Below are positions 13,931-55,462 of a DNA stretch of 64,000 bases, piece after piece. The DNA is from Marsupella aquatica. Its lineage: Eukaryota; Plantae; Marchantiophyta. The first letter of the stretch is position 1. Every line of letters begins with the position of its first letter. The stretch is taken from assembly GCA_973895155.1 (NCBI GenBank), contig OZ316893.1, positions 22,913,844 through 22,977,843 on the forward strand, given 5' to 3'. A program made the translations under genes and the position numbers. The notes beneath the pieces are model-generated. The model saw only the letters and a program-made list of their open reading frames with translations. It was not told where the DNA came from and searched no databases.

Positions 13931-14225
13931 CTCGGGGGTCTCATTATATGGATGCCTCCCCATCATCTGTGACGTTTTTAGGCCTTGGACCCCCTAAAAT
14001 ATAATTTTTAAAAATTTTATTGACCGTTATAAAGTTGGAATATTCTTAGAATATTTCAAAAATTTGGTTATAAGGACCCTAATGTTCTTATAAGTCCCAA
14101 AATTGGATTTAAAAGGCCTTATTGTTCTACTCAGAAGATTCTTAAGTCTTCCCTTCGAACCAATCAAATGATCCTATACTTCGTCGCATGTGATATGCCA
14201 TTTTTGTGAAAGTGAAACCCCCAAG
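13931..14225 (+). mobile_element. ~295-bp MITE with 8-bp TSD (hAT-like), copy 1
   Basis: Ends CTCGGGGGTCTCA ... TGAAACCCCCAAG; TSD tgtacgat on both sides. Confidence 0.9.
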
Positions 14226-18200: not shown

Positions 18201-19289
18201 GATCCGTGTTGGTATTCAAACCTCAATATCAAGGTGCAAGGTGCGGCAAGGGCAAATTTTGGCAGGCGAATACCAAATGGGATCCATGGTTCATCCTTGG
18301 TTTTGAGTGAGTTATTTTGGACTTGTTTAGAAAAATGGGATACGTGGATCCCTATTGGCATTCCCTGATTGGTCCGTACAAGGGTTTTTTTAAAGTGAGT
18401 CTATCTTTTCAAGGAACGCTGAAATTTAAATTGTAGATCTTCGAGGAAGTCGCCGTGGATCCCAGTTGGTCTTCAAACTAGAATATCAAGGTATGCAATG
18501 CAAAAAGTTCAAAATGTAGAGGTTGAATACTAGATGAGATCCATGGATCCCATTTGGTATTCATCCTCCTGTTTTCCCGATGAGTTTTTGGACTTGCAAA
18601 AAAAAATGGGATCCATGGATCTCAGTTGGTATTCATGTCGAAAGATCTCCTGATGCAAAGTTGCAGGTGGAAAACATTGAGGTTGAATACGAGAGTGGAT
18701 ACTTGGATCCCGTCTCGTATTCATCATGCGTTATGGGCTAAAATATTTCCAAAGATATCGTCGGGTTAACTTAACTAACTGTGTGGGTCAACTGTAGTCC
18801 GCGGTCAGTTTTTTGCAGTTTTTGGTTTTACCGCAGTTAAAAATTCAAATATTTTAAACCCGAGGTTAAATGGAAGCGTCAAGAGAATGATTTGGTGCGG
18901 TTTTCGTTCACGTTCAACCGTTGAATCCGAAATGGGATACGCTGTATCCCATTTTCAGTTTGCCATTTTGATTGCAAAAATGAAATCTTGTGTTTTCCTA
19001 GTTTTGTTTGACGCTCGGATTTAGCTTTTAGAAGGATCACGTGAAAAGCATTGTTTTTCTAGGTTTTGGAATTTACTCTTTTTTTAGATGAAGTGTCTCG
19101 GAATTCTGGAATGTAACAATTCTTTGTTTTTGTGTCGATAGTATCTCGATTTGAAATCCGATGTTGGATGCGATTTTGGATTCATCCTCAAAATAGCATT
19201 TTTGATCTTAATTTTAGTGATTTTTTGTCGTTTTTTGCAAAATCAAAAACACACTTCTCGTTTGGTGGTCATACTTCTCGTTTGGTCCG
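15209..19289 (+). mobile_element. Non-autonomous TIR DNA element with CACAGTG ends and internal hairpin arrays (left-arm copy; last 8 nt of right TIR missing)
   Basis: Starts CACAGTGACGGACCAAATGAGAAGTGTGACCAC and ends GTGGTCATACTTCTCGTTTGGTCCG. Many ~40-bp palindromes with GGGATAC..GTATCCC or GGGATCC..GGATCCC cores; no transposase ORF. Confidence 0.75.
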
Positions 19290-22200: not shown

Positions 22201-22400
22201 CCACCTCTCTATGCTACCCTTCAACTCCCAGTGTATGTCGTTGCAGCTCTTGATGGCTTCCCGGATGCCGATGATTCTGTTTTCGCAAAACAGAAGGTCG
22301 TCGAGCTAATTGGCAGTAGGAGTCCACAAGAACTCGGCCTTGATGAGTTCTCCTCCTAAGAAGGCAGATTTCTATAGCTCCCATAGTCGAGTGAGCTCCT
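19290..22400 (-). pseudogene. Long retroelement-associated extra ORF (plant-mobile-domain-like N-part plus coiled coil), broken by in-frame stops
   Basis: ORFs 21919-22224, 20098-21882, 19579-20082 and 19243-19563 share one frame, separated by single TAG/TAA codons. FVGSW...RVYGKDFYLTPRLIAEVFGLP resembles FVKNY...RLRGRNISLTEERLKMIFGLP at 52501. The natural end appears to lie at 45494 after undoing the inversion. Confidence 0.7.
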
Positions 22401-25400
22401 GCCATACTCGAGCTGCTCTTTCTGATTCTTGGTCCTCGTAGGTCCCAATGTACTCAGTTGCCCGTTCGAACAGGCATCCCCAAAAATGTGCCGCTTGATT
22501 GACGTTGCTCATATCCTCCTTACGTCAATCGTCTGTATCTACTCCCGCCCAGAGTGCTTGCCTAAGCAGCTGACAGTAGTTGGCCTCCCGTAGTTGTCTA
22601 CCCAGTTCATGCTTGCAAATGAGCCACCATTCCTCGTGAGCGGTCCTTACCCCTCTCCCTGCCTGGTCTTCCCTCCCGTTGGTTACCCCTAGCCGCCGAC
22701 ACTTAGCGTGCCCTAACCCTAATCGTGTTCTCTCCCCCTGCGTCCTGACTTCCGGCCTCGGCCCGGGTTCCATAGTCACCCTTAATTTTTTATACTTTCC
22801 TTGTTTTGTTACTATCCTAATGTGTTTCCAGGGTACACTCCCGTTTTTACCTTTGGCTGGCCTAGTGATTCCTGGCTAGGCATCACAAGATTACATTGAA
22901 AGATCAGATGCAAACTCTGCTGTGCGGACTGTGCAATCGGAAGTTTGTTTCGTGTCGATTGAGTTGGCGACGGCTCGTGGAAATCGTTTGAAGCTGTTGC
23001 GTGGATCCGTGGTAGCTTGGATCATACTGAATAGATTGTTAGTATTTTGATCTGCTGTCGTTTGTATCTCATTGCCGGGCTGTTTTGAGAAGAGAGATCA
23101 CAGATCGTTGAAGATCTTGCCAGATTTGCAAGGAGACAGAGTGTCGATCTGGGATGTGCTGCCATTTGACAGACAGTATGCTGCTATTTGCATTTGTCTG
23201 TAGTAGATCAGGCTTGTTGAGGTGTGGATGTTGATAGATCGGGCCTACATCGTCATCGTATGTTCTTCTGTTTGGCCGATCTGCTATTTTCGCAAGAGAA
23301 ACAGCCGCGGATGTTGCTGAATCGCGCAATGACACCGCCTGTGTAGCATTTTGCAGAACTTGCATGTCAACCTCTGCGTTTTGTTGAAGAAACAGAACTT
23401 TGAATGTTGTTGTTTTGGTAGCGGATGACTGTGCGGAGGCGGGCTGCTGCTGATCAGTAGCGCGGAAGCATCGCTTGCGTGTTTGCAAAGGGAAACGTCT
23501 CAGGAATGTTGCCCATTTCAGACGGGTGGATCGCGGATTCGTCGGCGCCGTCCACGAAGGAAACTCAAGGCCGAAGTCTGAATGTTGCCGAATCCGGAAC
23601 TCGATTCTGCATAGCAAAGCGTTGTAGGCGTGAAGGGCTCACTCTTTGGCTCATCTCGGCGTTGGCATGAAGGGCTCACTCTTTGGCTCATCTTGGCGTT
23701 TAAAGGCTTTGAGGCAACTCGTGGTTACTCGGGACGAGGGGCGTGAGGGCGGAGCGGGCCAGCAAGCCAGCTTGCTGGTACGTGAGGAGAATTGCAAGTG
23801 CTGCCATTTTGGAGTGGCAGATTTGGTGCATAACTACAAGTGAGAGGTCACCCATCCCAAAGCTATTTCCTTCCCCACGCGCTTAACTATGTGGTTCTTA
23901 AGTGCTCTTGTGTACACACACTCCTTTCCACTTTGATGTTAATGGGATGAGCACTTAGGCATTTTATACACATACTAGTTTGTTTAGATTGCCATTTTGG
24001 GGCAAATCATAAGCTCCCTTAAGGTTTTTGATGCTTCTGAATCCATCTAGATGCATGGATTGAACCAATTGTGCATGGATCCTTAGCTACAACATTGAAC
24101 ATTGAGAGGCCTATTATGAAGGCCCCACATTGAACATTATGAACATTGTTTGATTGATGTATGATCACTATTGATGTGGAGAGTTATTGTGGATCTCTTC
24201 TTGTTGATTGGATCCTCTCCACATATGCTTCCTATTTATGCGCCATGTTAGTTTGGCGTGGGCGCTTGATTCTATAGGAGTGATCCGGGTTTGCAACCGG
24301 ACATTCTAGTTGTGCTACGTATTTCTCTCCTGGTGATGTTGGAGTGATGCCCAACACACCATGGTGAGTGCTTGTGTTGCTGACAGGAACAGATTGCCCT
24401 TAGGGTTAGCATATAGATTAGGTTAGGTTGGTCACCACAGATTCTTCTGGTGCTGCTGGGTTACCCGATGGACGATGGACCGGTTTCACTCGGAGTGGGG
24501 CGCAGTTTTGGCCAGCGACATTGGTAGCAGTCAGTAGCACAGCTTCAGACAGTGATTCTGATGAGGACTCTGTGAGCAGTTCTCCTCGTCATCAGGTGAT
24601 TGCACCTTTGTTGTGGGATATGGAAGAGATGTACGGGGCTACAAAGGGCCCATGACGATACTCTGGTGCAGTTGGCATGATTGATCTGGATGACTTCATC
24701 CAGGAGTTTGATACGTGGTGCGATATGCAGACATTGCGTAATGCCACATTGTTTACCCCTTTCATAGCATGGAAGGGATTATTTCAGCATTTATAGGGGC
24801 CACCCATGGATGACTACCATGAGTTTTGGAAGGCTCATTTGGTTGAGATTGAGACATGGAGGCAGCATTGGTCACCTAATTACGTGTCCATTACCTATGG
24901 CACTAGTGCGGCTGCCCAACCCATTGCCACAGCTGCTGTTTCTTCTAGCAGCACTAGCCAGAGTGGCACCATCCACCACCAGCACTCCAGCAACATCCAC
25001 CGCCACTCCTGCCGGTGTGATTGTGATAGGGACTGGAGTTGCACCAGCATTTAATCCTATGGTGGAATTCTTTGAGGTACTGAAGCAGAACTATTAGGGT
25101 GTGAGAACTGATAAGTTGAAGGGTCTCTAGGAGTTTCAGCGCAAGACTAGAGAGAGTCTACGTGAGGCATACACTCGTATGCACAGGTTGATCACTGTCA
25201 CCAAGGGAGTGACAGAGGCTCAGGCAGTCTAGTTTTGGTATGCAATTCTGGACAGAGAATTGCGACGCAGAGTGAGAGATGTCACTCTACTTAGGGATGC
25301 AAATCCCACATTAGCACTTGTTTTTACCCTTTCTGTGCGCATTGAGCTCAATATGGTGAATGAGAAGGTGGTGACTTCCGGATTTGCCAAGGAAGCACCA

Positions 25401-27282
25401 AAGGCTGCATCTACATCCACACCACAGCCTACTGCATGAAAGAGCCAGAGGGAGAAGCCTACTGCACGAGAGTTTACCATCCAGAGACCTGTGCCCTCTT
25501 ATGCTGGACAGCAGTCAGGATGTTGGACCTGTGGTGGGGATCATGCATAGAGATATTTCCCAGATCATAGAGGATCAGGGGGAGCATCGGCACCTGATCA
25601 GTAACAGTGGGATCACTGTGGAGCTCCTAGACACACCAAGGATAGGTGTTTCTCACTCCATCCTGAGTTACGGAGAGGAGGATCCCGTACACATGATCAA
25701 GGAAGAGGAGGAGGAGGTAGAGGTGGTGGACGTGGTCGTGGCATGCCACATGCAGGGAGACAGGGAGATGACGCTGCCCCTGCTGTAACCATAGATCCAA
25801 AGGATGCTAAGATTGCTCAATTGGAGCAACAACTAGCTGCCATGGCTAGTTCCTAGGTGAGACCTACTTCTGGTGATGGGGCATCTACATCCTATGGACC
25901 TTCCACATCCCATGGTCCTTCCACATCTTATGGAGCTAATGGAGACCTTGCCACCATGGGATTCATGTGTGGCACTACACATATTGATGCATCAGCAGCT
26001 TTGACACGTGGCCCGGTAGCCAAAGCTCTTGAGCCCCGAGGAGCAGTAGTGGAGCTAGATCCACAGAGGGGGGATGCACGTCGGCAGACAAAGCTTCCTC
26101 AGTCTTTTACATTGTCAGAGATAGTCTAGACTGCCTCTATGAACTCGATTTGGACAAACCCTGGCGTGGGTAAGTTGGCAAAATCAGGTAGTGATGCAGT
26201 AGGGATGACAGGTACCCTGCTGGGGGTGGCTACTGCCATAGTACGCACCCCATTATTTTTAGCGACAGACATGCTACACTTGGGAGTTGGTCCTACAAAA
26301 GTGTTCAGATTGGCAGCTACACTCTATGAGGACACTCCAGTGGTTGCTTCCCATGCAGAAGCAGCTTGCAGTGTTGAAGCAGTAAAGACCATGCCACCTA
26401 CTACTACTAGTGAGATATGGCATGCAGTATCAGCGAGGTTGGTGGATTTACTAGCATCCCCTGCATTTGAGAGGACTAGGTTTAATTAAACCTAGTGTTG
26501 TGTCATTGGATAATCGGAGTGGTATCTTTCGATTAGTTGGGCCTTCTGGAACAGTATACCAGCTAGAGAGAGTTACTGGATAATGGTGCTCAGCCCTTGA
26601 TGTTGGGTAAGTCTGCCATACGTGGATTGTGATTGCGTCCAGAGGATTTGGAGGATTGTCCCTTTCTCATTCAGACTTCATTGGGGGGACCTACACCTAC
26701 ACAACACATTACCAGGAGACCTCTTGATTTGAGGATTCAGGAAGGTCATACCATAGATAGCTCACAGATACAGGTGCGAGCTATTTTGACTAAGGAAGAG
26801 TCATATGATGTGTTGGTGGGATGTACAGTGCTCTACCCCATGGGATTTATTCTTGATTTTTGGGAGGAATCAGTGTCATATAGACCTGATTGGCAGTCAG
26901 GAGATGCTCGATTGAGCAAATTACCAGTGAGATTTAGTGGACCTGTGGGAGGCCCTAAATCCACACCATTGTCTTTGGTAGCATTCAGTGGTGTAATTGC
27001 TGGACCTGATGATTTGATTGAGGGTAATGCGCATGCAGCAGATGTTCCACCATTGGAAGAGTCTCATGAGGAGCACATCATGCGGGGATTACCTATTGGC
27101 AGTGTTGTGCCACCAGTGTGGGGCACTGCACAGGCCTTGCCACAGGCAGCAGCACGATTGGTACATGATGCATGGCGTCATGCTTTTACACCATAGTTAG
27201 GAGCAGAGCAGTCTCTTGCAGATGGACCGGTGACTCTTTCACCATGGGATACCACTCCTATTGCTTGGCATATCCACCAGAG

Positions 27283-28220
27283 GGTATTTGTTTGTTGGAT
27301 CTTTTTGGTGGGATTAGCACTGGATTGGCTGCTGTTCTTCAGGCAAGAATTCTTGTGCGTCGTTATTTGTATGTGGAGACAGATGAGACAGCACGGAGGG
27401 TCTCATTGCGACATGTGGCTATGTTGGTGGATAGATATCCACAATTGCTGCTAGTGGATGCTAGCTGTTCATGGTTATCAGCATGCACTACCTGCTGATA
27501 TTTCATTGTTGGGGGCGGATCATCTGCATCGTGTTGGCCCCATTGATTTGGTGATTGTTGGTTGGCCATGTCAGGGCCAATCTAGAGCTGGCGTTGGGCA
27601 TGGACTTCATGATCCACGCTCTGCATTGTTTTGGGAGATGTTATGGGTGTTGCGTCATCTCTAGCTACATCAGACATAGTCTCTAGCATACATTTTGGAG
27701 AATGTGCCATTGTTAGGTGATGATCGTAGTCGGATTGTTGCCAGTGTTCACCAGGTGAGGTCTTGGATTGGACCTGCTGTGTTATTGAATGCTGCACATG
27801 TGGGTTCTCGTGCACATCATCCACGCTTGTGGTGGACTAATTTGATCCCATGTGAGGCGCTGAAGCGTGCATTTGACAGCATTCCATGCTCACCAGCCTT
27901 AGTGGTGGATGATATTTTGGATCTAGGGCGTCGTGCACAGGGTGTGACCCAACCTGATAGACCTCCATTGGTAGTGGTCAATGCAGTTGGATGCCCACGT
28001 TGTGCATTACCCACTCTTGTAAGCCACTCTGCTTCATATGCATTCAGAGCAGGTGGCCCTGGACTTGTGTGGGACACAGCTCTCCAGCAGTTAGTGGAGC
28101 CTACTGCTGATGAGAGAGAGCGTGCTATGGGATTTTTGACTGGCACCACTATAGTTGCCTCTGTGTCAGAGGGTTTGCGGCGCCAGGTTCTTGGTCAAGC
28201 AATGGATGTGAATTGTTTGA
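27283..28220 (+). pseudogene. DNMT3-like C5 cytosine DNA methyltransferase domain inside the retrotransposon pol
   Basis: Motif I LLDLFGGISTG, II YVETD, IV IDLVIVGWPCQ, VI ENV, VIII SRAHHPRLWWTNL, IX ERERAMGFLTGTT and X RRQVLGQAM in canonical order, across a frameshift (~27470) and stops (~27662-27690). Confidence 0.92.
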
Positions 28221-28651
28221 CTCAGTTAGATTATCAGCTTGGGAGTAGTTGAACAGTTGCGGATGCGCTTTGCTGGAATTACTGATTGTCCATTGGTGAG
28301 CTTGCGGTCCACTGAGACAGTATTGACCACAACTGGGGGCGAGCAGACAGTCCATGGACCTATGGCAGGATTGGCCAAGGCTGGACAGATTGTTGAGCAA
28401 GAAGGGATTGCTCAATCTACTGCTAAATAGCAATCATCGACTATCTCTTCTACCCTACAAAGAGATATTAGGGATTTGGTGGAGAGTTGGGAACCACAGC
28501 TTGGCCCTAAGTTAACAGGGGAGGAGAGACGTCGCATGCATCGATTCCTGAAGAGTTATTGGAATTGTTTTGCATTCAGCATGAGGATTTGGGGATATTG
28601 AAGGGCCCTGGTATTCAGATTGAATTGGCTAGTGATGCGCCAATCTTTCGT

Positions 28652-28948
28652 CTCGGGGGTCTCACTACATGGGGACCTCCCCATCACCTACGACGTTTTT
28701 AGGCCTTGGACCCCCTAAAATGTAAGAAAAAAATATTATTTTTTAACCCCTATAAAGTTGGAATATTCTTGGAATATTCCAAAAATTGGATTAAAAAGGC
28801 CCTAATGTTCTTATAAGTCTCAAAATTGAATTTAAAAGACCCTATTGTTCTTCTACAAAAATTCTTAAGTCTTCCTTTACAACCAATAAAATGACCCTAT
28901 CCTTCGTCGCACGTGATATGCCATTTTTGTGGAAGTGAAACCCCCGAG
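28652..28948 (+). mobile_element. ~297-bp MITE, copy 2, inserted in the gypsy RT
   Basis: CTCGGGGGTCTCACT ... AGTGAAACCCCCGAG; TSD tctttcgt. Confidence 0.93.
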
Positions 28949-31734
28949 TCTTTCGTAGATCATACCGTTATAGTGACATGGAGAGAGCTTTGATTCAAAG
29001 CAAAACTCAAGATTTGTTGGAGGCTGGATTGGTGGAGATTTCATATGGGGAGTATGCATCTGCCATAGTGATGCCAGCCAAGAAAGATGTGCATGGCAAT
29101 TACACAGATAGACGCATGTGTGGTGATTACAGACCTATTAATCGCCAGACAAAATCTGATCGATATGCCATGCCCACACCTAAGGAGATCTTTGATGCTG
29201 TGGGGCATGCAAAAGTTTTTAGTTCATTGGATCTAAGGGCAGGGTACCATGATCAGCTTCCAATTAGGCATGCTGACAGGTCCAAGACAACGTTCTGGGG
29301 GATTGATTTCTATGGCAAAGATTGTTTGTATCAGTGGTAACTATTCTTACCATTTGGGTTGAAGAATGCACCAGCTGAGTTCCAGAGAGTCATGGATCGA
29401 ATCCTTGCAGGTTTGGATTTTGTCAGATGTTATATTGATGATATTTTGGTCTATTCTTCTACAGTGGAAGAACATCAGCAGCACTTGCAGATTGTGTTGG
29501 AGAGATTGAGAGCACATGGGTTGAAGCTCCATCCTGGCAAGTGTAAGTTCTTCCAAGACCAGATTGAGTATTTGGGCCAGTCCACACTATATACCCAGGG
29601 GGATTGGGTGTACAGCAGACTAAAGTGGAGGCCATTACACAGATTCCTTGTCCTACTGATGTGAGCAGAGTTTGTGCATTCTTGGGATTGGCGAGCTACT
29701 ACAGGAGGTATGTAAAAGGATTTAGCCAGCTTGCTAAACCTTTAACCATACTCACTAAGTTGGATCAGGAATGGACTTGGGGTGATGACCAGGAGCATAC
29801 CTTTCAGGAGTTGAAGCAAAGGTTGGCATCATCCCCTATTTTGAGAAGACCCATTTTAGGCAGACCATTTCAGCTACACACTGATTGGAGTGGAGTAGGA
29901 CTTGGAGCAGTGCTAACTCAGAAAGATGATGAAGGGCATGAGTTTGTTGTGGCATATGCCAGTAGATCAAACAATTCAGCAGAGGCTAAGTATAGCTCTT
30001 ATGAGGGAGAGTGTTTGGCAGCAGTTTGAGCTGTGGCACACTTCCGCTGTTACTTGTTTGGTAATCCTTTCACTTTGATCACTGATCACCAGCCGCTCAA
30101 GTGGTTAATGGAGTCTGACAAGCTTACTAGGAAGCTTGCAAGATGGGCATTGTTGTTGTAGGAATATGATTTCTAGGTTGTACATAGACCTGGAAAGGTG
30201 AACTTGGATGCAGATGGGTTGAGCCGCAACCCATGTACCAGTCAGCAGGATGAGACTGGAGCCAGATGGCATGATGAGTCAGATAAAGAGATGGTGCCAG
30301 GATGGCATGCATCTGCCTTTCTTTGTTGGGTGCTAGCATACAGTGGATCTGTGGACTCTACCTCATTGGATGGAGTGGATGATGAGTCTTCAGATGTGGA
30401 TGTTGGTGAGGTAACTGTTGGACAACAAGATATTCACAATGATGTGAGAGTGTTGGAATATCTGCGCAGTGGTTCTATTGTTGGCAGTGTTGATGCCAAA
30501 GAACGTGACAGGGTTCTACAGAGAGCCAAGAGGTTTTGATGGGAGGGAAACCATCTTCTGAGAGTATTGCATGATGGTAGGGTGTTGGTGGTACCAAAAC
30601 CATCACAACGAGTACATTTGGTGCGACATGCACACGAGGAGTTAGGTCACTTTGGTGTGAAGCGCACTTACAGCTTGCTGCAAACACAGTATTGGTGGCG
30701 TGGTATGCACACTCATGTCCAGCAGTTGATAGCTAAGTGTGTGGTATGTGATAGAGTGAGAGCATCATTTAATGCTCCCACTCCCCAGTTGCACCCGTTG
30801 CCGATCATGGGTTTGGGATATCGTTGGAGTTTGGATTTTGCTGGTCCATTACCTCTTACCCAACGTCATAATCGATATGTTTTGGTCATGGTGGAGCACT
30901 TCTCCAAGTGGATTGAGCTAGTGGCGTTGCCAGATAAAACCAGTGGAGGAGTTGCTGCTACATTTTTGGATCGTGTACTCAATCATTTTGGAGCACCAGT
31001 TGAGGTGTTGACTGATCAGGGAACTGAGTTCCGTGGAGAGTTTGAGAGTTTGTGTGAACAAGCTTTGATTGATCATCGTACTACCTCTCGTGATCATCAT
31101 GAGGCAGATGGATTAGCTGAGAGAGTTGTGCAAACTGTGAAGAGAGGATTGCGTAAGTATGGCTTGCAGGTTGGTCATCTGGGAGATTGGGATCTCCAAC
31201 TACCTTGGTTAGCTATGGGCTACCGTTTCAGTCGGCAAGCATCACTTGCATCCTTCTCACGGACCTTACTTTTTGCTCTATGGTAGAGACCCAGATTTGC
31301 CACCAGCTATTCATCGTGATGCTGCACCAGTTGTGAACTTGGATGATCCTTATGTTTGGGTCAAGGTGTGTTCAGAGAGAGCATGGGTATTTCAGAGAGT
31401 GATGCCCATGGCTTCTGACAACCTTGCCATTGCCCAACATCGTGATACTTTGAGGTATGCCACTATTCGTGGAGGAGGTTACCGTGCAAGCATTCGACGA
31501 TTTCACCCTGGTGATTATGTTTATTTGCAACAGACAGCACCCACAACACTTGATGTGACCGCAGGCCGGACAATCTTACGTGTTCGGGAAGTGTTGCCTT
31601 CTGGTGTCCTGATGTTGGAGGGACGCGATGGTATGGTTTGGAAGGATCATGTGCGCAACTGTGCACCATGTCACCTTCCCAACATTGATGGTACAGTAGA
31701 TCCAAGCTTGGCACATGTTCGTGCTGGCTTGAAA

Positions 31735-31875
31735 TGTATGTTGTGTGGATCTGCTCAGGGAGCAGCTACTATGTTGATTTGTGATAAGTGTTCTAGAGGA
31801 TGGCACATGTCATGTTTGACACCACCATTACAGGTGATTCCTAGTGGATCATGGTTGTGTCCTCAGTGTCGGTGA
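31735..31875 (+). other. PHD finger at the integrase C-terminus
   Basis: CMLC...MLICDKCSRGWHMSCLTPPLQVIPSGSWLCPQC is a C4HC3 PHD pattern with the conserved W before the last CxxC. Confidence 0.93.
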
Positions 31876-32050
31876 AGCCGACTAGTTATCATTGGTGTTC
31901 TCTTGGCAGATATGGATTGTAGGTAGGTGATCGATGGGGCTCACTTGCACCCGGCCTCCTGATCTTCACACTTAAAAAGGTGTATATCAACCTTGTAGAA
32001 CTCATGGCTAGCTAGAGTCAGGGGACCTTACTCCCAGCTAGGGGGGCGAT

Positions 32051-32962
32051 TGTGGGTTTTGGACATGTGTGGACATGAGTTTCACTTGTATTCCATTCTC
32101 TTGTGTTTGAGATGTGGCAGTGTGACTATGTCTGGATGTATGTGACAAGCGATGTATGTTGTGTAGCGATGTGTATGCGCACGATAGCTGTCACACCATT
32201 CTAGGTAGTGTTAGAGTGTATCATACTATCTAGATCCGTATGTTTGGTATGTGTGCTATATGAGCCGATAAGGTTCCGTCAGGTTTGTGTGAGAGGGTAC
32301 TTCTCACTTGTGAGGCATTGAAAGGTCATCTTTCAATGTTGAGCCTTGGAGAGAGAGGAGCTTGAGTATGGCTATGGTGGCTGTGAGCTCCGCTTGTGTA
32401 ACGTGGATTCCTTGAGTAGTGCAAGGTGCGTTGGCTTGACATACGTGTGTGATCGGATCAGTGCGGGATCGATGGGGTATTGTTGACCGGGATCGTTGTG
32501 CCGATTGTATTGAGATTATTGTGGGTTTTGGACATGTGTGGACATGAGTTCCACTTGTATTTCATTCTCGGGGGTCTCACTATATGGGGACCTCCCCATC
32601 GCCTGCGACGTTTTTAGGGCTCGGACCCCCTAAAATGTAAGAAAAAAAATTTATTTATTAACCCCTATAAAGTTGGAATATTCTTGGAATATTCTAAAAA
32701 TTGGATTAAAAAGGCCCTAATGTTCTTATAAGTCTCAAAATTGAATTTAAAAGACCCTATTGTTCTTCTACAAAAATTCTTAAGTCTTCCCTTACAACCA
32801 ATAAAATGACCCTATCCTTCGTCGCACGTGATATGCCATTTTTGTGGAAGTGAAACCCCCAAGATTTCATTCTCTCGTGTTTGAGATGTGGCAGTGTGAC
32901 TATGTCTGGATGTATGTGACAAGCGATGTATGTTGTGTAGCGATGTGTATGCGCACGACACA
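32051..32962 (+). repeat. Two ~140-bp TGTG...CACA direct repeats (32051-32195; 32520-32962 with MITE) at the 3' end of the DNMT retroelement
   Basis: tgtgggttttggacatgtgtggacatgagtt...gatgtgtatgcgcacga occurs twice; the first copy follows a polypurine-like tract. Confidence 0.8.
32567..32863 (+). mobile_element. ~297-bp MITE, copy 3
   Basis: Same TIRs; TSD atttcatt. Confidence 0.93.
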
Positions 32963-33055
32963 TGGGTAAGATTCTGTCACCTTTCTTTGAATGATTGTTT
33001 GAATTCATTTAATATTTGGAATCCTTGTTTCTAATTGTAAGGTTCCCTTTTGTAG

Positions 33056-34197
33056 AAAGATACCACCTCCTGGAAAAAGAAGGGAGATGAGGAAGGCAAA
33101 GATCTCAAGTCATTCCCGGACAAATTCAATGCGCATATTGTGCAAGCGCAAAATTGGCTATCCATGAAGACTTCTAGTTGGCAAACCCAAGAGGGGGAAC
33201 TTCATCCAAATTCTTTTGAGCATCCAGAGTTTGGTGATGTGCACTATGATATTTTTACTCATGATGCACAGCAATTACACGAGGTGGTTCCAGGTCGGGC
33301 TTACACATTAGCTTTAGTGGATATTCCCTACGGGTTTGCATTGCCTGGATGTCTTCATGAGGACACTATTGGATGGGGAATTGAGGAGATCACAAAAATG
33401 GTCCAATCTTTCAAGGTGGCTACTACTGCGAAGTTGTGGCATATTATCATTCACCACAGCCTTGACCAATATGAGGCCATCAAGACCGTTTTGAAAGCGG
33501 AGTGTAATGGAGGGTTCCAGAATTGTGTGTGGTAAGAAATATTTATTTTTGAAAAAAACAATTATTAGTTATTCATGATTTCATGAACCATGTTTCTAAG
33601 TTTAAATGACTCCTTGACTTTTTGTGACTTTTCAGGGTTAAGGATAATGTGAAGAATGCTGGTGGGCCAAGATTGAACAGCAATTTTGAGTGCTTTACAA
33701 TTGGCTTTCACAGTCAAGATGGTAAACGGTCATTGGAGCACTTCAATTTTGACACAAATGAATCAAGGAACAATATGGTTGTATGCGCAGCTGTGACTAA
33801 GAAGCTGAAACACAATGGGGATAACAAGGCAGTGAATGTCTATCAGAAACCACGTGCATTGTTAGATTGGGAAGTGAGTCATTTTAGTCAGGTTGGAGAC
33901 TGGGTTTTGGATATTTGTTCAGGATCAGGGACTGGGACAACCTCCTCCTTGGCCATGGGGAGACATTGCGTTGCCATTGAGATTGACGAGCGACAGAGCA
34001 GTGTGTTGAAAGGGAGGATTCTTAACCTTGCAGATAACATTGAAGAGGAAGATGGACAGGGGGAGACGGATGAGGAGAGTGAGGAAGACATTCCTCAGGC
34101 CGGAGAGGATAGCGTGGTTGACGATGCCACAATTGTTCCAGAATTGACGACAGGGACTTCCAGAACCGAGGAAGGGGAAGCGGTCCCTTTGGATTAG
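33056..34197 (+). CDS. Beta-class amino-DNA methyltransferase (N4-cytosine/N6-adenine type); last two exons, 5' part missing
   Basis: Exons 33056-33531 and 33636-34197 joined by a GT-AG intron (TG|gtaag...ttcag|G restores NCVWVKDN). Motif IV LALVDIPYG precedes YQKPRALL and motif I GDWVLDICSGSGT..AMGRHCVAIEID, which is the beta order. An upstream intron gtaag(32966)...tgtag(33055) is also visible. 345 codons with no stop; acidic tail. Confidence 0.88.
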
Positions 34198-34668
34198 ACT
34201 AGGTAAATAGAGGGACTCGTAGCATTTGAAACCACTTGGGGTTAAGTTGGGTTATATTTTGTAAAACTTTGAGTTTGACTTAAACTCTAATCGATGAGTT
34301 TGATTTTGACTACTTTTATAAAGTGCATATTTCAAGGTTTATACAATTGTGAGAATATCATATAAGATATGCTTAGATTTTGGTGGTAAAATTCTCTTGA
34401 GTCTAGTTTGGAAAATACATACCATTTTTTGGTACACATTTTTGAATATCATGAAGATTTTGAAAAGAGAAATAAGGCTTTGGACTCATCCCTTAAGGCT
34501 TCTTGTTAAGTGCCTAGTGTACGTAGCCAGGAGAGTCCATGGCCACTCTGTTTCTAAGTAGTTGTGTATCGTCTATGCTATTGCAGAGAATGTAGTAAGG
34601 AAGGAAAAGATAGTAAGTATCGTAATCAGAAATAAGACTTCTGGGGCCACTGCTGAGAATACTAATAA

Positions 34669-37600
34669 CACAGTGACGGACCAAACGAGAAGTATGACCA
34701 CCAAACGAGAAGTGTGTTTTTGATTTCGCAAAAAACGGCGAAAAATCACTAAAATTAAGATCAAAAATGCTATTTTGAGGATGAATCCAAAATCGCATCC
34801 AACATCGGATTTCAAATCGAGATACTATCGACACAAAAACAAAGAATTGTTACATTCCAGAATTCCGAGACACTTCATCTAAAAAAAGAGTAAATTCCAA
34901 AACCTAGAAAAACAATGCTTTTCACGTGATCCTTCTAAAAGCTAAATCCGAGCGTCAAACAAAACTAGGAAAACACAAGATTTCATTTTTGCAATCAAAA
35001 TGGCAAACTGAAAATGGGATACGGTGTATCCCATTTCGGATTCAACCGTTGAACGTGAACGAAAACCGCACCAAATCATTCTCTTGACGCTTCCATTTAA
35101 CCTCGGGTTTTAAATATTTGAATTTTTAACTGCGGTAAAACCAAAAACTGCAAAAAACTGACCGCGGACTACAGTCAACCCACACAGTTAGTTAAGTTAA
35201 CCCGACGATATCTTTGGAAATATTTTAGCCCATAACGCATGATGAATACGAGACGGGATCCAAGTATCCACTCTCGTATTCAACCTCAATGTTTTCCACA
35301 TGCAACTTTGCATCAGGAGATCTTTCGACATGAATACCAACTGAGATCCATGGATCCCATTTTTTTTTGCAAGTCCAAAAACTCATCGGGAAAACAGGAG
35401 GATGAATACCAGATGGGATCCATGGATCTCATCTAGTATTCAACCTCTACATTTTGAACTTTTTGCATTGCATACCTTGATATTCTAGTTTGAAGACCAA
35501 CTGGGATCCACGGCGACTTCCTCAAAAATCTATAATTTAAATTTCAGCGTTCCTTGAAAAGACAGACTCTCACTTTAAAAAAACCCTCGTACGGACCAAT
35601 CAGGGAATGCCAATAAGGATCCACGTATCCCATTTTTCTAAACAAGTCCAAAATAACTCACTCAAAACCAAGGATGAACCATGGATCCCATTTGGTATTC
35701 GCCTGCCAAAATTTGCCCTTGCCGCACCTTGCACCTTGATATTGAGGTTTGAATACCAACACGGATCCACAGATCCCATTTGGTATTCACCCGCCAAAAT
35801 TTGCCCTTGCCACACCTCGCACCTCAATATTGAGGTTTGAATACCGACACAGATCCATACCGACACAGATCCATACCGACACGGATCCATGAGTCTCATT
35901 TGTTGATTCAACTCCAAAACAATTTTGGATTTTTCCTTGCTCAGCACAACCCCAATCACATCCATTTTTTACTCTTTCAAAATATGTAGGACCAATCAAT
36001 AGACCTACCTAAAAATGGAGGCAAATACCAAGTGGGTTTGTGGATCCCACCTCAGATTCAAAGTTCCGGATTGGCCCTCGGTCACAAGTCACTCATCCAT
36101 TTTCACATTTGAATACCAAATTGGATTTCATTTGGTCTTTGTAAAATTCTTATCACTCTTTGTAAAGTTCTTGATTTGTAAAATAACATGTTCTTATACC
36201 AAATGTGGGATCCATGGATCCCACTTGGTATTCATACAAGGTTTTATGACTTTTTCCTTTCTAGATTTGTGAAATAACATGTTTGAATACTACATGGGAT
36301 ACTTGGTATCCCACTTGGTATTCCTCTTGAAGTTTTGATCATTTGTGATCTTTTTACAATGCAATCTGATTTTTTTGCGAGATTTTGCCTGATTTCAGAT
36401 TTTTCTCTTTTTCTATTTTTGCAACGCCGAGTAAAGCGGCTGAAAAATCTCAAGCTCTTCTTTCTAACGGTATCAATTATAAGGAATTTGGATAAATACC
36501 GATAAAGATATGACTTCCAAAGCGTGAGAGGGTACAAACTTAAGTTTTTGTAATTTTATAATTTCACCCCAGAACTTAATCTTATCATATCTTAGTCCAT
36601 CTTTCATCGTTTTCATATCAATTCTTGTCACAACTAGTGATGAAGATGTTAAGTATGAATTTGGATCATTTCAAGATTCTCAGGCAGCTAGATAGGGTCT
36701 TTGGATTTGACTTTGAAAGAACAATTGAAAGCTTAGGGGCTCAAAGTTAAGAATGACCCGGTATTCACTAGTTTTGGATTGAATTTCTCAATTTATGGCT
36801 TGTGCATTCCAAAAGCCTCATATCCTTGGATTGAATCCAAAGTAGGATACGTGGTATCCCATTTCGTATGCAACTCCTGAACTTACGGCTTGTGGATTCC
36901 CATTCCTCATTTGGTTCATCACTGTGTTTATTGTGAGATACCCAGTATCCCACTTCACATTCAACCTCTGCCTTTCAGACCTAACGTGAGATATTCAGAG
37001 GTTGAATACCAAATGGGATACTTGGTATCCCACTTTGCATTCAACATTGATTTTTCTATCTTTTGATTCTAAAATGCATGTGATTCATCGGTTGAATCTG
37101 AAATGGGATACGCGGTATCCCATTTTGCATTCAACCTTGAATTTCTTGCATTTTGCACCTAAATGCTTCATATTCAGAGGTTGAATGCAAAGTGGGATAC
37201 AGGGTATCCCACTTTGCATCCAATCTCATTTTTTCACGTTTAAGATACCCAAACTGGATTTTTGAAGATTGAATCCCAAATGGTATCCCATTTGGGATTC
37301 GTCCTCATCATTTCCAAAAAGATATATCATTCTCACTTGTTCAGATTCTAGTTTGATTTGGGGGGATATAAATTTGCATAGAGAGTGTGGATTCTCGGGG
37401 GCGCAAGAGGATGCGGGAGTGAGAAGAAATGAGCAGAAATATTTGATCATGGCTTTCCTATTTATAGTTTGCCCTTGACCGTGGTCAATTTCTAACTGCA
37501 GTTTCATCGTAGTCAATTAAAAGTTACCGTTAAAAAGAATTTTCTAGGAATATTCTTGATGGGTAAAATGACCTTGCCCCTTTTACTGCGTTTGTTGTTT

Positions 37601-40600
37601 TTTCTTTTTGGAAAACCGCGGTGGGATCCAAAATGGGATACGCCATATCCCAGCTTCGGATTCAAGTTGTTTTTTCTCGTTTTTAAAATCTAAAATCTGG
37701 GTTTTTAGAGGGAATACCAATTCCATATCCAGTACGTTTTTGCCTTAGAATTTTTTTCCGCCGCGGGCAAAACAAGAAGTGTGGTCACACTTCTTGTTTG
37801 GTCCGTCACTATGTTACACGTGATTTGCAGGTGGAATCCTAATTGGGATACGAGGTATCTCATTTTGCATTCAACATTGAGGTTTTGACATTTGCAAACT
37901 AAGATGCTTCATATTTGGAGGTTAGATCCGATATGAGATACCCCGTATCCCACTTCGCATCCAACTTCCTTTTTTAGCTATAGAGAAACAAAAATTGGAC
38001 ATTTGAAGGTTGAATCCCAAATGGGATACGCCGTATCCCATTTCGCATTCAACGTTGAGATTTTGACATTTGGAAACTAAGATGCTTCATATTCGGAGGT
38101 TGGATGCGATATGGGATACCCCGTATCCTACTTCGCATTCAACCTCCTTTTTTGGCTAAAGAGATACAAAAACTTGACATTTGAAGGTTGAATCCCAAAC
38201 GGGATACGCCGTATCCCATTTGGGATTCGTCCTCGCCATTTCCATAAAGATTATCACCTATTAGTCAAATCTGATTTTCAAGGAATACAAATTTGTATAG
38301 ACGGTGTGCATTCGACAAGAGGAAGAGGATGCAGAGCGAGAAAAAATGAGCGGAAATTTTTCAATCAGAGATCTCCTATTTATAGTTTTCTCCCTGACCG
38401 TGGTTAGTTTTTGACTGCAATTGCATCGCAGTCGATTAAATATTACCGTTGATAAGAATTGTTTGGGAATATTCTTACAGGGTAAACTGATATCGGCACT
38501 TTTACTGCGTTAGTTTTTTTTTTTTTTTGAATTCCGCGGTTGGATCCGAAATGGGATACGCCGTATCCCATCTTCGTATTCGTGTCGATTTTTCCCATTT
38601 TTTAAAATCTGAAAACTGTTGTAACTCATACTTGAGTTAAGTCTACCTTTGGGATAACTACCTATGTAACTACCCTAACTACTTAGGCCGTAGCCACATG
38701 TACATATCCTACCAAGAGTAAAGATGGAACCAACTCTTTGTCTCATTTCTCCCACAACACGTTATCAGCACGAGCCTAAGACTGGCTGAATTTTTTTTAG
38801 GCCATGACTAATTCACTCTAAGACCTGAAGAGGCCGAGCCATGACGGAGCTTTGTTAGAGGGGCAGCGAGAGGTATGAACAAATTTGGCGATGTATCGCT
38901 GGAAAAAGCTGAATGAACGAGAGAGAGATGGCGGAATTAAGGATTGTGATGTGATGGATAAAGAATTGCGTCATAGCGTGCACAAAATTTGTGGATGAGA
39001 GAGTCCTATAGTGATGCGAGGTGAGGTCATGTCAATCAAGGAAAAAGGGATTGTTATCTCTGAAGGCGGAAGCGGCTAGCTAGAGAAGTCGAAGAGTTTT
39101 CATCAGATTCTACTAATTCCCTATCTCCACATCGACATTCCTTTCATGTGCATCCATGTGCACAACGTGGGCCTGGCGATGGTGAACTGAACCTTCAAAG
39201 TTTTTCCCGCGTTCCGAGGATTATGAACCGAATGGATTGTTTTCACGAATGCAAGTGAACGCCCTGCTTGATCTGACCTAAAGGAATGACAAAATCATAC
39301 GCACTAGCTGAGATTCAAAGCGCATTCCAATGAATTTCGAAGAAGGAAGAACGACAAAGGCGCTTTGATGAAAGAGAATTTTCCGTTTGAAATTGACCAG
39401 ACGACCCAATCTTGAACAAGGGCCCTCACACAGAGCAAGACTTACCGACCGGGCCACCGACTACCTTGAAGTCCACCTGATTCAGAGACACACAAAACTG
39501 ACTACAGAGAAGAAGGATCGGACCCAAATACAATTCGGCACACAATGATAAGGACAGGGGAGAAGGAGGCCCGAGTCATTCGAGTACGATACCACATCCA
39601 GAACGATACAAATGCCGTATCGATTTCGGCAATAAGGATAACAAGGCAGTGACATCGACGGCATTTAGTATGAAATATCGAGGAGGCCCCAGAGATAAGA
39701 ACCAGAATGTCACATCATAGGTAGAGAAGACGGCACAATTCACGGGACACAAACAGACCACCACAGAGCGAAATAGTGATGCGATGTGGAGGCGTTGAAA
39801 TTCGGAAATGAATATGAAGGAATGCAGCAAGACCACAATAAGCGAGTGAAGCAGAAGATTCAGAGGATTTCCCCTTGTCGAAGGAAGGATTGGGACCAAT
39901 AACAGAAGATAAGAGAGAGCGCAAACCGGAGAATTATACTGTCGACAACCATGACCAGGCTCAGATGGAGTGAAGGACGATAGATAGAGCAGAGGACCAC
40001 AAAGAAAGAAGGCATACTTGACGTTTAGAGAGCACGAAGGGAACGCCTGCAGCTGACGAACAAATCTCGCAACAAAGAACTTCAAAACTTTGAGAAAACC
40101 TTGAGAAAATGCGCTAAGTGAAGAACCCTCCTTAAGTGCACAACCCGTCAAAGAGATTTGTGTTTACAAAGGAAATTGTGCAGTTATCCAGGGAAATACA
40201 CTTCAAACAACCTAAACACTAAACCAACCCCAAATTCCAAATTGTTTTTAGCAAAATACAAACTTAACAAAAAGCACCTTTCTTTACAAAGGAAACATTG
40301 CCATGCAATATTGATTTCAGAGTTATTAAAAGCCAATGCGACAATGTTGATTTGCATTAACATTCACAAGAACATTTCATGCCATGCCAAAACTATTTAA
40401 GGCACCTACACAAACACTTATTGAAAATGTTAATGATGGTTACTTTCACCAATTAATTTCACAAATTCCAGAGGAGATATTTTCCCCAGGTTACCTACTG
40501 CACATAAAAGCCCTGTGCCTACTGCACATGGAAGCAAATGAGTGCCTACTGCACATGGAAGTAAATGACAAATTGAGGGGGAGACCTCAAGGCCAATGAG

Positions 40601-41728
40601 TGCCTACTACACACCCAGCCAGAAATAAAAAATATTTGACAAATTGAGGGGGAGATCTCAAGAAAGACTTGACTCCCAGAAATCGAACCCATGGGATGTG
40701 CCTATTGCACAAGTGCCTTTCGCACCAATGAATACCTAAAAATGGAACTTTATTCCATGCATATAGCAAATCATGAAATCTAAGGAATTTTTATAAATGA
40801 TTGAACATGGTGTTAACACAATCACTTACCAATACTTGATGAGGTATACTGGATATTAAAGTACCATATGATAATATGAGGTACAGTACCAGGTCATAAG
40901 GTACCATAAGGTGAGACATGGCATGGTAAGGCACCATAAGAGATGGTGCGCCATACCCCAATATGATAACCCTATGTTGTGGATATGATACGTGATGTGG
41001 TGCAAATAGGTTATGCCCACACCAAATCTAGGGTTGGACACCCAATCCAATTCCAAGGCCATGGATTACACCATATCATCTTCATTTTGTACTAATACTT
41101 TGCTTTGTCATGGCATGTAATCGGAGAAACAATCAACCAAGGAAGATCTTCAACAAGCCTATAGTGCACATACACTATATGCTTAAACCCAAATATGTTA
41201 CACCCATGGGGATGGTAATACTCTTTCCTCCCACAAAGAAAGTAGGGGAGGTTTTAATGAGGTTACATCCCCCACTTACACTCTACCATGCAACATGAAT
41301 TATAAGACATCTATTAGGAGAAGCTTTACATTCATAGTAGACTTGAGATGGCTACACCATTTATAAAATAGGCTAGACATAAACAAAACCTATTGTATAC
41401 CACTGAATATACCCAAAGTAGACTCTTGATTGTAACATTTCAACCCCAATGTTACAAAGGGGGAGTGTTGTAACTCATACTTGAGTTAAGTCTACCTTTG
41501 GGATAACTACCTATGTAACTACCCTAACTACTTAGGCCGTAGCCACATGTACATATCCTACCAAGAGTAAAGATGGAACCAACTCTTTGTCTCATTTCTC
41601 CCACAACAAAAACTAGTTTTTAGGGGGAATACTAATTCCGTATCCAAGACTTTTTTGCCTTAGAAACTTTTTCCGCCGCGGGCAAAACGAGAAGTGTGGT
41701 CACACTTCTCATTTGGTCCGTCACTGTG
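34669..41728 (-). mobile_element. CACAGTG-ended hairpin-array element, right-arm copy with both TIRs intact
   Basis: CACAGTGACGGACCAAACGAGAAGTATGACCAC at 34669 and GTGGTCACACTTCTCATTTGGTCCGTCACTGTG ending 41728; contains the 3-kb LTR insertion. Confidence 0.8.
38617..41608 (+). mobile_element. Non-autonomous copia-type (Bianca-like) LTR element / large TRIM
   Basis: Identical 143-bp LTRs TGTTG...CAACA (38617-38759, 41466-41608); TSD aaaac; PBS cgttatcagcacga; PPT aaagggggag; absent from the left arm; no intact ORF. Confidence 0.95.
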
Positions 41729-42712
41729 TTTAATATGTTCTTGCTGTAATAGCATTCTAGCACCAGCAAGGCGAGCATGTCTCCGGGTCGATCCAACAGA
41801 AGCTGACATTGCGTTGAGGTGATCCAAAGTAACTGAAAAGATAAGAATCTGGTCAAAAATTCTCTTCTTGGATAGATCAAAGGTCTGCCCGTTTTGTGCA
41901 AGCCAGATACTGTGTCAGCCTGAAGCTCTGATTCTTGAATTTTGTGGAACACTCTACAACAAAATGTATCAACATTCTTACTATGTTCAAAAGGGTGAAA
42001 ATGTATCCGATCAGAAGTCCCAATGCGTAGACTCTAGACATAGGATGCTATAGACATTTTAGCCATAATGGCGAGGTACATCAAATTTACTTCGATCAGA
42101 TGCCTGATCAGATATCCCAATGAGTACACTCTAAGCACAAATACTAGACTGATGATTGTTCTGCTACCGTGTACAATATGTTGACAGGTTTTTTGTTTGT
42201 GCATTTTCCCATGTTTTGTGTTTTTTTTCACCAATTTTGTACTTTTTGTAAAAAAAAATTGAACATGATTTATGACCCAAAATTGCACACCCCAAGTCAT
42301 ATGCAACAAAAAGTTCACACTTTAGAACCAGGTAGCAAAACAAATCTTCCCTGTACTTCTATACAAAAAGTTAGCACTTGAGAAAATATTCTAGACTTGA
42401 GAATTAATTAAAAAACATCCCTCAAGAATTACAATAAAAAAGTTGCACGCAAAAAAAATATGGTGGAAAAACATGTGGCAACATATTGTACCAAGCGTCC
42501 AATATGTTGGTGTGTGTTTTTTTCTACACCACCGTACATGATCGTACACACAAAAAAAATGAAAAAAACACACACCTTAAGACAATGAATAAAAAATACA
42601 CAACTAGAAGAAAATGAAAAAAATACACAAGGAGAGGAAATTGAAAAAAAACATAGAACCAGAGGAAGACCAATGAAAACTATCCAAATGCAATGTCGTA
42701 CATGATCGTACA

Positions 42713-43007
42713 CTTGGGGGTTTCACTTTCACAAAAATGGCATATCACATGCGACGAAGTATAAGATCATTTTATTGGTTCGAAGAGAAGACTTAAGAAT
42801 CTTCTGAGTAGAACAATAGGGCCTTTTAAATCCAATTTTGGGACTTATAAGAACATTAGGGTCCTTATAATCAAATTTTTGAAATATTCTAAGAATATTC
42901 CAACTTTATAAAGGTCAATAAAATTTTTAAAAATTATATTTTAGGGGGTCCAAGGCCTAAAAACGTCACAGATGATGGGGAGGCATCCATATAATGAGAC
43001 CCCCGAG
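42713..43007 (-). mobile_element. ~295-bp MITE, mirror of copy 1
   Basis: Same element and TSD (atcgtaca) as 13931-14225, copied with the arm. Confidence 0.9.
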
Positions 43008-55132: not shown

Positions 55133-55462
55133 GGCATGATTAGTTCCACAAAGTTCACTGCACTGGCTATAGTAAACAACCTCTTGTTTAATAAAAATGG
55201 AAGTCTGATTCAAACGACCAGGTACAACATCACATTTTACACCTAAGGAAGGTACAGCCCAACTATGAAGTACATCGATGGAAGTAATAATCATACATAG
55301 ATGAGTTTTTGCTGGTACAACCATCCAATTGTCCACTTCTAATAAATGTAATTGACCCAATTCTAGATCATCCTTTGGAATCATATAACTGTCAAAAGTT
55401 AGTGGCTGTTCATCAGAACTGTTATATATAGTCTGAATACTCATAGGTCCAATACCATTGAT
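55133..55462 (-). pseudogene. cox2: Mitochondrial cox2 fragment (NUMT)
   Basis: [33 protein letters not shown]...[23 protein letters not shown]...[10 protein letters not shown]; truncated and frameshifted. Confidence 0.93.

What the first reader, a model, noticed from the sequence alone, without database searches (positions are those of the whole stretch)
33056..34197. Intron-containing bacterial-type beta-class N4C/N6A DNA methyltransferase gene in TE-rich DNA
Seen: DIPY (DPPY-like) catalytic motif, then W.K, then QKP..LL, then VLDICSGSGT...GR..VAIEID. This is the permuted beta arrangement of restriction-modification amino-MTases, here split by spliceosomal introns and free of stops. Known: eukaryotic 4mC writers of bacterial origin are rare (bdelloid N4CMT, Marchantia DN4MT1). 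Inference: a DN4MT1 relative or a separate, possibly transposon-borne amino-MTase family that could deposit 4mC or 6mA. DIPY and the Cys in motif I deviate from consensus, so base specificity and activity cannot be read from sequence.
Basis: partly seen in the sequence, partly recalled or inferred. Interest (0 to 1): 0.85.

Follow-up and report, generated by a model that had tools for sequence, protein, structure and literature searches.

The report
Plant transposon's ParB-methylase gene, broken copy
This is the broken rear half of a bacterial-style DNA methylase gene that sits at the end of a many-copy mobile element in a probable moss or liverwort, and intact relatives, found from stoneworts to Ginkgo, fuse it to a ParB-fold domain and likely use it to bind and methylate (most likely on adenine) their own DNA.

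Summary
The methylase is real: two open exons (33056-33531, 33636-34197), GT-AG introns, Pfam N6_N4_Mtase above cut-off, beta motif order. It is not DN4MT1-like (DIPY, not TSPPY), and this copy is not a whole gene: a Gypsy LTR ends 5 bases before the upstream intron and the 5' half is not in the window. Relatives (Calypogeia 66%, 11 Riccia sorocarpa paralogues, Chara, Ginkgo, plant-type metagenome contigs) carry an N-terminal ParB/Srx-fold domain and evolve under purifying selection (dN/dS 0.05-0.11). DIPY and the motif-I Cys are family consensus, not decay. The gene lies 310 bp inside the sharp end of a repeated element with many different flanks; related elements in two further contig groups also end in TGTT or a one-base variant, and one relative lies head-to-head with a Cys-rich, possibly transposase, gene. 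This matches the ParB-methylase accessory gene of the Ectocarpus Sola1-1 transposon (CGGTT end), described in algae but, in my searches, not in land plants. Activity, base specificity, the transposase and the left end are untested.

The parts
32961..32965 (+). 5-base remnant of the upstream exon of the methylase gene
   Evidence: Two contigs of X1 and one of X4 continue upstream of 32960 with a different sequence that extends the reading frame and matches the Calypogeia and L007 proteins
32966..33055 (+). Intron 1 (90 bp, GT-AG, phase 0)
   Evidence: same position in L007
33056..33531 (+). Exon: end of helical linker, start of methylase with catalytic motif IV (DIPY, 33320-33331)
   Evidence: 64% identical to Calypogeia CAM6129466
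33532..33635 (+). Intron 2 (104 bp, GT-AG, phase 2, inside the Trp of W.K)
   Evidence: same position in L005, L006, L007
33636..34197 (+). Last exon: QKP, motif I (DICSGSGT, 33910-33933), acidic tail, stop
   Evidence: Pfam PF01555 35 bits; PDB hits CcrM, MboIIA, RsrI
34198..34507 (+). 3' non-coding part and right end of the carrier element, ending TCTTGTT
   Evidence: Depth falls sharply here and contigs leave with different flanks; end homologous to the end of contig L005, 0 of 1000 shuffles as high
32051..32960 (+). 3' LTR (TG...CA, after a polypurine tract) of the Ty3/gypsy element that interrupts the gene; holds a 298-bp MITE at about 32567-32863
   Evidence: 62 contigs of X1 leave with unrelated flanks behind 32960
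24600..31875 (+). Decayed Ty3/gypsy internal region: gag-like and protease-like stretches (read by eye), C5 cytosine methyltransferase (about 27250-28250), RT, RNase H, integrase, PHD finger
   Evidence: Pfam DNA_methylase 30.3 bits, cut-off 22; RT (weak), RNase H, rve, PHD; stops and frameshifts

Best explanation
The stretch is the 3' half of a ParB-fold plus amino-methyltransferase accessory gene lying inside the right end of a many-copy mobile element, likely a Sola1-type DNA transposon, and this copy is cut off from its 5' half by a Gypsy LTR and so likely dead. Shown: methylase domain, introns, truncation, sharp element end with many flanks, ParB/HTH-fold N-terminus and purifying selection in relatives. 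Inferred: intact elements carry a transposase head-to-head with this gene; the ParB/HTH part binds palindrome arrays inside the element and the beta-class domain methylates nearby DNA of the element itself, marking it against host silencing or licensing it for transposition. My odds for intact copies: N6-adenine 0.6, N4-cytosine 0.2, inactive or another substrate 0.2.
For: Mobile: contigs leave the window sequence at 34507/34508 with unrelated flanks (X1 6+2 contigs, agreement 0.44/0.58; X6 2+2). Contigs nearly identical to the gene have depth 577-5175 against about 10-90 for MITE-flank contigs in X1, X3, X4 (a rough sign of tens of copies, not a count). 11 distinct Riccia sorocarpa locus tags on 5 large contigs, many of them fragments. 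Common end: of 17 ends (16 loci picked from BLAST boundaries, three adjusted by eye, plus the window), 17 have TG at -4/-3, 15 have T at -2, 16 have T at -1, and the base after varies (T8 A5 C2 G2). Sola1-1_Ec32 has AACCG-CGGTT termini, a 4-bp TSD and a ParB-plus-N4C/N6A gene opposite to its transposase (PMC12477816). A non-coding element 160 bp further on has AACAC...GTGTT ends, 35-bp TIRs (33 of 35 alike) and a 4-bp TSD, so TIR elements with such ends exist in this genome. ParB fold: model pLDDT 84.8, Foldseek ParB/Noc E 4e-5, VIA-align Z 9.2 PadC (rmsd 3.2, 99 aligned) and 8.7 KorB (rmsd 11.8, 175 aligned); this domain is upstream in 22 of 25 plant-type loci with at least 2.1 kb upstream (many are near-copies, about 13 distinct groups). 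Divergent partner gene in L007 with 4 relatives ending in a conserved Cys-rich region. dN/dS 0.05-0.11 in 6 of 6 pairs. Profile hits in PDB rank adenine enzymes first (DpnA 7e-15, CcrM 5e-14, MboIIA 7e-12) over N4CMT 2e-6 and PvuII 8e-4; DPPY marks bacterial N6A and SPPY N4C enzymes (PMC8885841). Palindrome arrays upstream of the gene in L021 (at least 7 perfect copies about 41 bp apart) and pairs in L006 and L007.
Against: No left end, TIR or TSD of the carrier element was seen; the contigs are too short. The partner gene has no Pfam or PDB match; only its first exon is available and its likeness to Sola-type transposases is recalled, not tested. Head-to-head layout was seen in one locus only. 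Many of the ends have a subterminal hairpin and a TT pair, which would also fit Helitron2-type elements. Sola1-1_Ec32 shares only GTT with these ends. The N6_N4 domain has switched specificity repeatedly (PMC8885841); 11 of 34 locus hits have DIPH. The ParB-like motif reads GG(N/S)HS without the arginines of ParB CTPases (recalled), so clamp-like behaviour is doubtful. Palindrome arrays were not seen in the 310 bp held in the window, and differ between lineages. dS is near saturation in 5 of 6 pairs.
Confidence: 0.62

Rival explanations
1. Same gene and same truncation, but the carrier is a rolling-circle element of the Helitron2/Helentron type that ends in TGT and inserts between two Ts.
For: Subterminal hairpins in two contig groups; T at -2 and -1 in 15 and 16 of 17 ends; HLE2 elements insert at T-T, have a right-end stem-loop and occur in land plants (PMC11417382); FoHeli3-5 end in CTCCTGT (PMC5148889).
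Against: The partner gene's first exon has no Rep or helicase hit; the hairpin at the window's own end is weak (-4 kcal/mol); a neighbouring element with the same GTGTT end has true TIRs and a 4-bp TSD; HELIANO's captured-domain passages name no such methylase (passages only).
Confidence: 0.12
2. The carrier is a cut-and-paste transposon of another superfamily (EnSpm/Plavaka, Mutator, KDZ or an unnamed DDE group) that picked up the same mobile accessory gene.
For: ParB and PF01555 accessory genes move between Plavaka, Mutator and Zisupton elements in red algae (10.1101/2025.02.11.637652); earlier AI notes report them beside Mutator-, hAT- and Academ-like transposases (unchecked).
Against: Ends are not TAGTG or CTRR; GTT ends agree with Sola1-1_Ec32.
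Confidence: 0.15
3. A host 4mC writer related to Marchantia DN4MT1, with pseudogene copies.
For: Same Pfam domain and beta arrangement; closest named relative is from a liverwort.
Against: DN4MT1 has TSPPY and is a tandem pair; no SPPY among 34 locus hits, and among stored proteins only 3 multi-domain bacterial-type ones have it; ParB fusion; repeated element with many insertion sites.
Confidence: 0.04
4. The protein is kept as a DNA-binding or scaffold partner of the transposase and the methylase is catalytically idle.
For: Ile replaces the first Pro of DPPY and His often replaces Tyr; DIRS-borne N6A methylases are judged inactive (PMC4738411).
Against: D, P, W.K, QK, D and G-x-G stay at 90% or near it across 18 diverse relatives; bacterial-type proteins in the hit list carry DLPY and DMPY.
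Confidence: 0.2

Closest known systems
ParB-like plus N4C/N6A methyltransferase accessory gene of Sola1-1_Ec32, Ectocarpus (PMC12477816; passages and one supplement row read)
   Same: Same domain order, carried by a DNA transposon, on the strand opposite a partner gene (seen here in L007); element ends in GTT.
   Different: Streptophyte and land-plant clade with conserved introns; 650-900 aa against 1104 aa; TGTT against CGGTT; transposase and TSD not confirmed here; no direct sequence comparison was possible.
Plavaka accessory genes PAG2 (PF01555+SET) and PAG3 (ParB+2OG oxygenase) of red algae (10.1101/2025.02.11.637652; passages read)
   Same: Transposon-borne PF01555 and ParB domains beside arrays of inverted repeats; self-modification proposed.
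   Different: There the two domains are in separate genes with other partners; here they are fused.
MpDN4MT1a/b of Marchantia (10.1101/2021.02.12.428880; abstract and passages read)
   Same: Beta-class amino-methyltransferase of prokaryotic type in a bryophyte.
   Different: TSPPY, tandem host genes, sperm 4mC; here DIPY, ParB fusion, dispersed mobile copies.
N4CMT of bdelloid rotifers (PMC8885841; passages read)
   Same: PF01555, permuted, intron-containing.
   Different: SPPY and C-terminal chromodomain; targets transposons for the host rather than riding in one.
Prokaryotic ParB_N plus N6_N4_Mtase proteins (L041; ParB-terminase loci in PMC4738411, passages read)
   Same: Same two-domain order; profile match 99.4% over 201 methylase columns.
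   Different: No close prokaryotic relative: 27-43% over the motif-I region in 20 GTDB loci; the ParB parts did not align.

Membership tests
Beta-class amino-MTases (PF01555) | Pfam N6_N4_Mtase above gathering score | tested here: met
   35 bits vs 26.7
Beta-class amino-MTases (PF01555) | Catalytic motif IV before SAM-binding motif I | tested here: met
   DIPY 33320, motif I 33910
Beta-class amino-MTases (PF01555) | Methyl transfer to N6A or N4C | not testable with these tools
   needs an assay
MpDN4MT1 | TSPPY catalytic motif | tested here: not met
   DIPY here; no SPPY in 34 locus hits
MpDN4MT1 | Phylogenetic grouping with DN4MT1 and N4C enzymes | not tested
   DN4MT1 sequences were not obtained; tree lacks them
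MpDN4MT1 | Expression in late spermiogenesis | not testable with these tools
   no RNA holder listed
Bdelloid N4CMT | SPPY motif and C-terminal chromodomain | tested here: not met
   DIPY; acidic tail without a chromodomain hit
ParB-MTase transposon accessory genes (Sola1-1_Ec32 type) | ParB-like domain fused N-terminally to the methylase | tested here: met
   In relatives; this half is missing from the window copy
ParB-MTase transposon accessory genes (Sola1-1_Ec32 type) | Lies inside a multi-copy mobile element | tested here: met
   Sharp end, many flanks
ParB-MTase transposon accessory genes (Sola1-1_Ec32 type) | On the strand opposite a transposase | tested here: inconclusive
   Divergent gene in L007, identity unproven
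Sola1 DNA transposons | Termini like AAC...GTT of Sola1-1_Ec32 | tested here: inconclusive
   Right end fits; left end not seen
Sola1 DNA transposons | TIRs and 4-bp TSD | not testable with these tools
   Left end absent from window and contigs; met only by the neighbouring non-coding element
Sola1 DNA transposons | Sola-type DDE transposase | tested here: inconclusive
   Only first exons available; no library hit
Helitron1 | 3' CTRR end | tested here: not met
   End is TCTTGTT at 34507
Helitron2/Helentron | T-T insertion, right-end stem-loop, asymmetric TIR, RepHel | tested here: inconclusive
   Hairpin and TT present in many ends; RepHel and left end not seen

The most novel reading that the evidence does not exclude
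Land plants from liverworts to Ginkgo, and Chara, harbour an old, vertically inherited clade of DNA transposons that carry their own active ParB-guided adenine methylase and write 6mA on their own sequence as an anti-silencing or licensing mark: an unrecognised enzymatic source of 6mA in plant genomes, still multiplying in this genome.
Probability: 0.35. Interest if true: 0.78.

Novelty: new member of a known kind. Interest (0 to 1): 0.52.

Why it matters
ParB-methylase cargo has been proposed, but not shown, to let transposons modify their own DNA in algae. This finding extends the design to streptophytes and land plants (not found in print by paper searches), gives near-identical recent copies and intron-conserved relatives to clone, and warns that PF01555 hits in bryophyte genomes are not automatically DN4MT1-type 4mC writers. 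If active, it is a concrete enzyme and target set for the disputed question of plant 6mA. The window's own copy is probably a pseudogene.

Tried and rejected
No genome is held for the window, so paralogue flanks could not be read directly. The 5' half of the gene and the partner gene were not found in the window. First structure model (Riccia protein, 5-row alignment) was poor, pLDDT 40, and was not used. Viral contigs: 4 distant methylases at 28-34%, nothing for the ParB part or the partner. Partner gene: no Pfam or PDB hit; the ESM Atlas did not complete. CACTA (TAGTG at 34519) and Helitron1 (CTAG at 34517) ends were considered and rejected, as the repeat stops at 34507. Replitron-like direct terminal repeats were considered for the neighbouring non-coding family and withdrawn once TIRs and a TSD were found. 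The motif-I census failed (53 of 61 alignments stopped inside the motif) and was replaced by the 18 rows. The tree is the quick version with only 7 bacterial-type rows, so it cannot place the origin. CpG depletion of the exons (0.43) is no stronger than in L007 (0.39) and is not used as evidence. Three papers asked for by id were not held, among them the original Sola description and a review of horizontally acquired methylases; reference 50 of PMC12477816 (green-algal cases) was not read, and bioRxiv supplements were not seen; any of these could already mention plant members. DUF7869 gave no paper.

Full report
Observation. Two exons, 33056-33531 and 33636-34197, are separated by a 104-bp GT-AG intron and preceded by a 90-bp GT-AG intron; spliced they give 345 codons without a stop. 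The second exon passes Pfam N6_N4_Mtase (35 bits, cut-off 26.7) and its best enzyme hits in the PDB are beta-class methylases. Motif IV precedes motif I, as in the beta class.

The copy is broken. Five bases upstream of the first intron a Ty3/gypsy LTR ends (TG at 32051 after a purine tract, CA at 32960). In contigs of public runs that hold the stretch, 62 contigs of X1 leave at 32960 with unrelated flanks, marking the LTR end, while 2 contigs of X1 and 1 of X4 enter at 32960 from a sequence that continues the exon and agrees with the Calypogeia and L007 proteins. Nothing of the family's N-terminal half is in the window. The only in-frame Met before DIPY is at codon 37, so a short product cannot be excluded but would lack the ParB part. 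Some differences from other copies look private and of CpG type: at 33071 all covering depth in X1 and X3 and nearly all in X4 reads CGG (Arg) where the window has TGG, and 33179 behaves alike.

The family. A word-indexed search gave 4 longer relatives: Calypogeia fissa CAM6129466 (66%), Riccia sorocarpa R1sor_009704 (45%) and two unnamed. A profile search gave 10 of 10 hits from R. sorocarpa, many of them fragments. The exhaustive search found 426 proteins at E 0.001, 150 listed; of 10 long ones looked up, 3 are Chara braunii, 1 Ginkgo, 1 Riccia, 5 unnamed or generic. Full-length members have 650-900 residues: a GG(N/S)H domain, a helical region and the methylase. The N-terminal 363 residues of L006 fold with pLDDT 84.8 and match ParB/Noc (Foldseek E 4e-5) and PadC, KorB, SerK and sulfiredoxin (Z 7.5-9.2), with the KorB DNA-binding domain weakly covering the helical part (Z 4.9). 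This domain lies upstream in 22 of 25 plant-type loci with at least 2.1 kb upstream (near-copies included). DIPY is the consensus (21 of 34 locus hits, DIPH 11) and Cys occupies the Phe position of motif I in 12 of 18 aligned proteins. dN/dS is 0.05-0.11 in all 6 pairs among the window and L005-L007, with dS near saturation in 5. A quick tree puts the window next to Calypogeia (support 89) within land-plant rows, with Chara rows outside; with the hydrolase-NLR gene nearby the host is probably a bryophyte (inference). Prokaryotic relatives are distant (27-43% over the motif-I region in 20 loci), but a prokaryotic ParB_N plus DPPY methylase matches the family profile at 99.4% over 201 methylase columns.

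It is cargo of a mobile element. Near-identical contigs over the gene have depths of 577-5175 where MITE-flank contigs have about 10-90 (the tool warns that depth is no copy number). The repeat stops at 34507, 310 bp after the stop codon: depth drops from thousands to tens, and contigs leave with different flanks (X1 6+2, X6 2+2; 20 of 28 loose ends shown). Contigs of X1 and X4 with no difference bridge this end, so those runs share the insertion. In the 80 kept of 108 metagenome loci, diverged copies in two groups of plant-type contigs share a terminal segment roughly 0.7-1.2 kb after the stop where measured, with unrelated flanks. Over 17 ends the consensus is TGTT followed by any base, and the end of contig L005 is homologous to the window's end (0 of 1000 shuffles). 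In L007, 67% identical in the methylase core and with the same introns, a second gene starts 1 kb upstream on the other strand; its 4 relatives end their first exon in a conserved Cys-rich region that recalls Sola-type transposase N-termini (recalled; no library hit).

Comparison with what is known. [quoted passage not shown] Its supplement gives AACCG-CGGTT termini, a 4-bp TSD and a moss Sola1 as best transposase match. Red-algal Plavaka elements carry PF01555 and ParB accessory genes beside inverted-repeat arrays. A non-coding element next door in the window has AACAC...GTGTT ends, 35-bp TIRs and a 4-bp TSD. Together these favour a Sola1-type carrier over a Helitron2-type one, although hairpins and TT at the ends keep the latter open. 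DN4MT1 (TSPPY) and N4CMT (SPPY, chromodomain) fail on their defining motif.

Mechanism. Shown: domain content, truncation, mobility signs, selection. Inferred: an intact element makes a transposase and this protein from a divergent promoter; the ParB/HTH part binds internal palindromes such as the 41-bp array in L021; the methylase marks the element, probably with 6mA, given D-x-P-Y and profile hits led by DpnA, CcrM and MboIIA. The purpose, anti-silencing or licensing, is a hypothesis taken from the algal papers.

Verdict. Real feature, dead copy, new land-plant member of a recently noticed kind of transposon cargo. Paper searches found no description in land plants; most subscription papers are outside the library. 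Interest 0.52.

Noticed in passing
window 24600-32960: Decayed Ty3/gypsy element with a C5 cytosine methyltransferase between protease-like region and RT (Pfam 30.3 bits) and a PHD finger after the integrase. Such Dnmt-bearing Gypsy elements are described from Klebsormidium (PMC5890265, passages); those passages name no land-plant case. Its LTR is abundant in the laid runs and begins and ends with the same 134-bp repeat; no 5' LTR in the window.
   Followed up: partly
window 34667-41730 and 15207-19299: Non-coding element with 35-bp TIRs (AACAC...GTGTT), 4-bp TSD TAAT and many internal palindromes; a truncated 90% copy at 53536-54514.
   Followed up: partly
window 11446-19299 vs 34667-45493: 7.9-kb inverted duplication (98-99%) whose inner edge falls exactly on the transposon end at 34667/19299, suggesting a transposon-end-driven rearrangement.
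   Followed up: partly
window 38617-41609: Small LTR element without long ORFs, identical 143-bp LTRs and 5-bp TSD AAAAC, inserted after the duplication.
   Followed up: no
window 13930, 28651, 32567, 42713, 58914: 298-bp MITE in 5 copies, ends CTCGGGGGT...ACCCCCRAG, 8-bp TSDs (my note calling them 9-10 bp was wrong).
   Followed up: no
window 1073-9537 (minus): Alpha/beta-hydrolase, NB-ARC, LRR and repeated TPR-like stretches: a hydrolase-type NLR immune receptor; typical of non-flowering plants (recalled).
   Followed up: no
window 19246-22305, 50906-52528, 59170-60283: Three unannotated ORF groups with coiled-coil tails and no Pfam hit, resembling accessory ORFs of LTR elements (recalled); Gypsy pol at 47677-50277.
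   Followed up: no
window 23845-23900: Short stretch resembling 5S rRNA in reverse (recalled likeness, read by eye).
   Followed up: no
window 55085-55462 (minus): cox2-like fragment, probably an organellar insertion (read by eye).
   Followed up: no
P0004, P0084: Family members with a PHD-like Cys-rich domain after the methylase (weak Pfam hit in P0084), a possible chromatin-reading variant.
   Followed up: no
L021 650-1030: Array of the palindrome TTCGATAC-N3-GTATCGAA every 41 bp upstream of the ParB-methylase coding region, a candidate binding array.
   Followed up: partly
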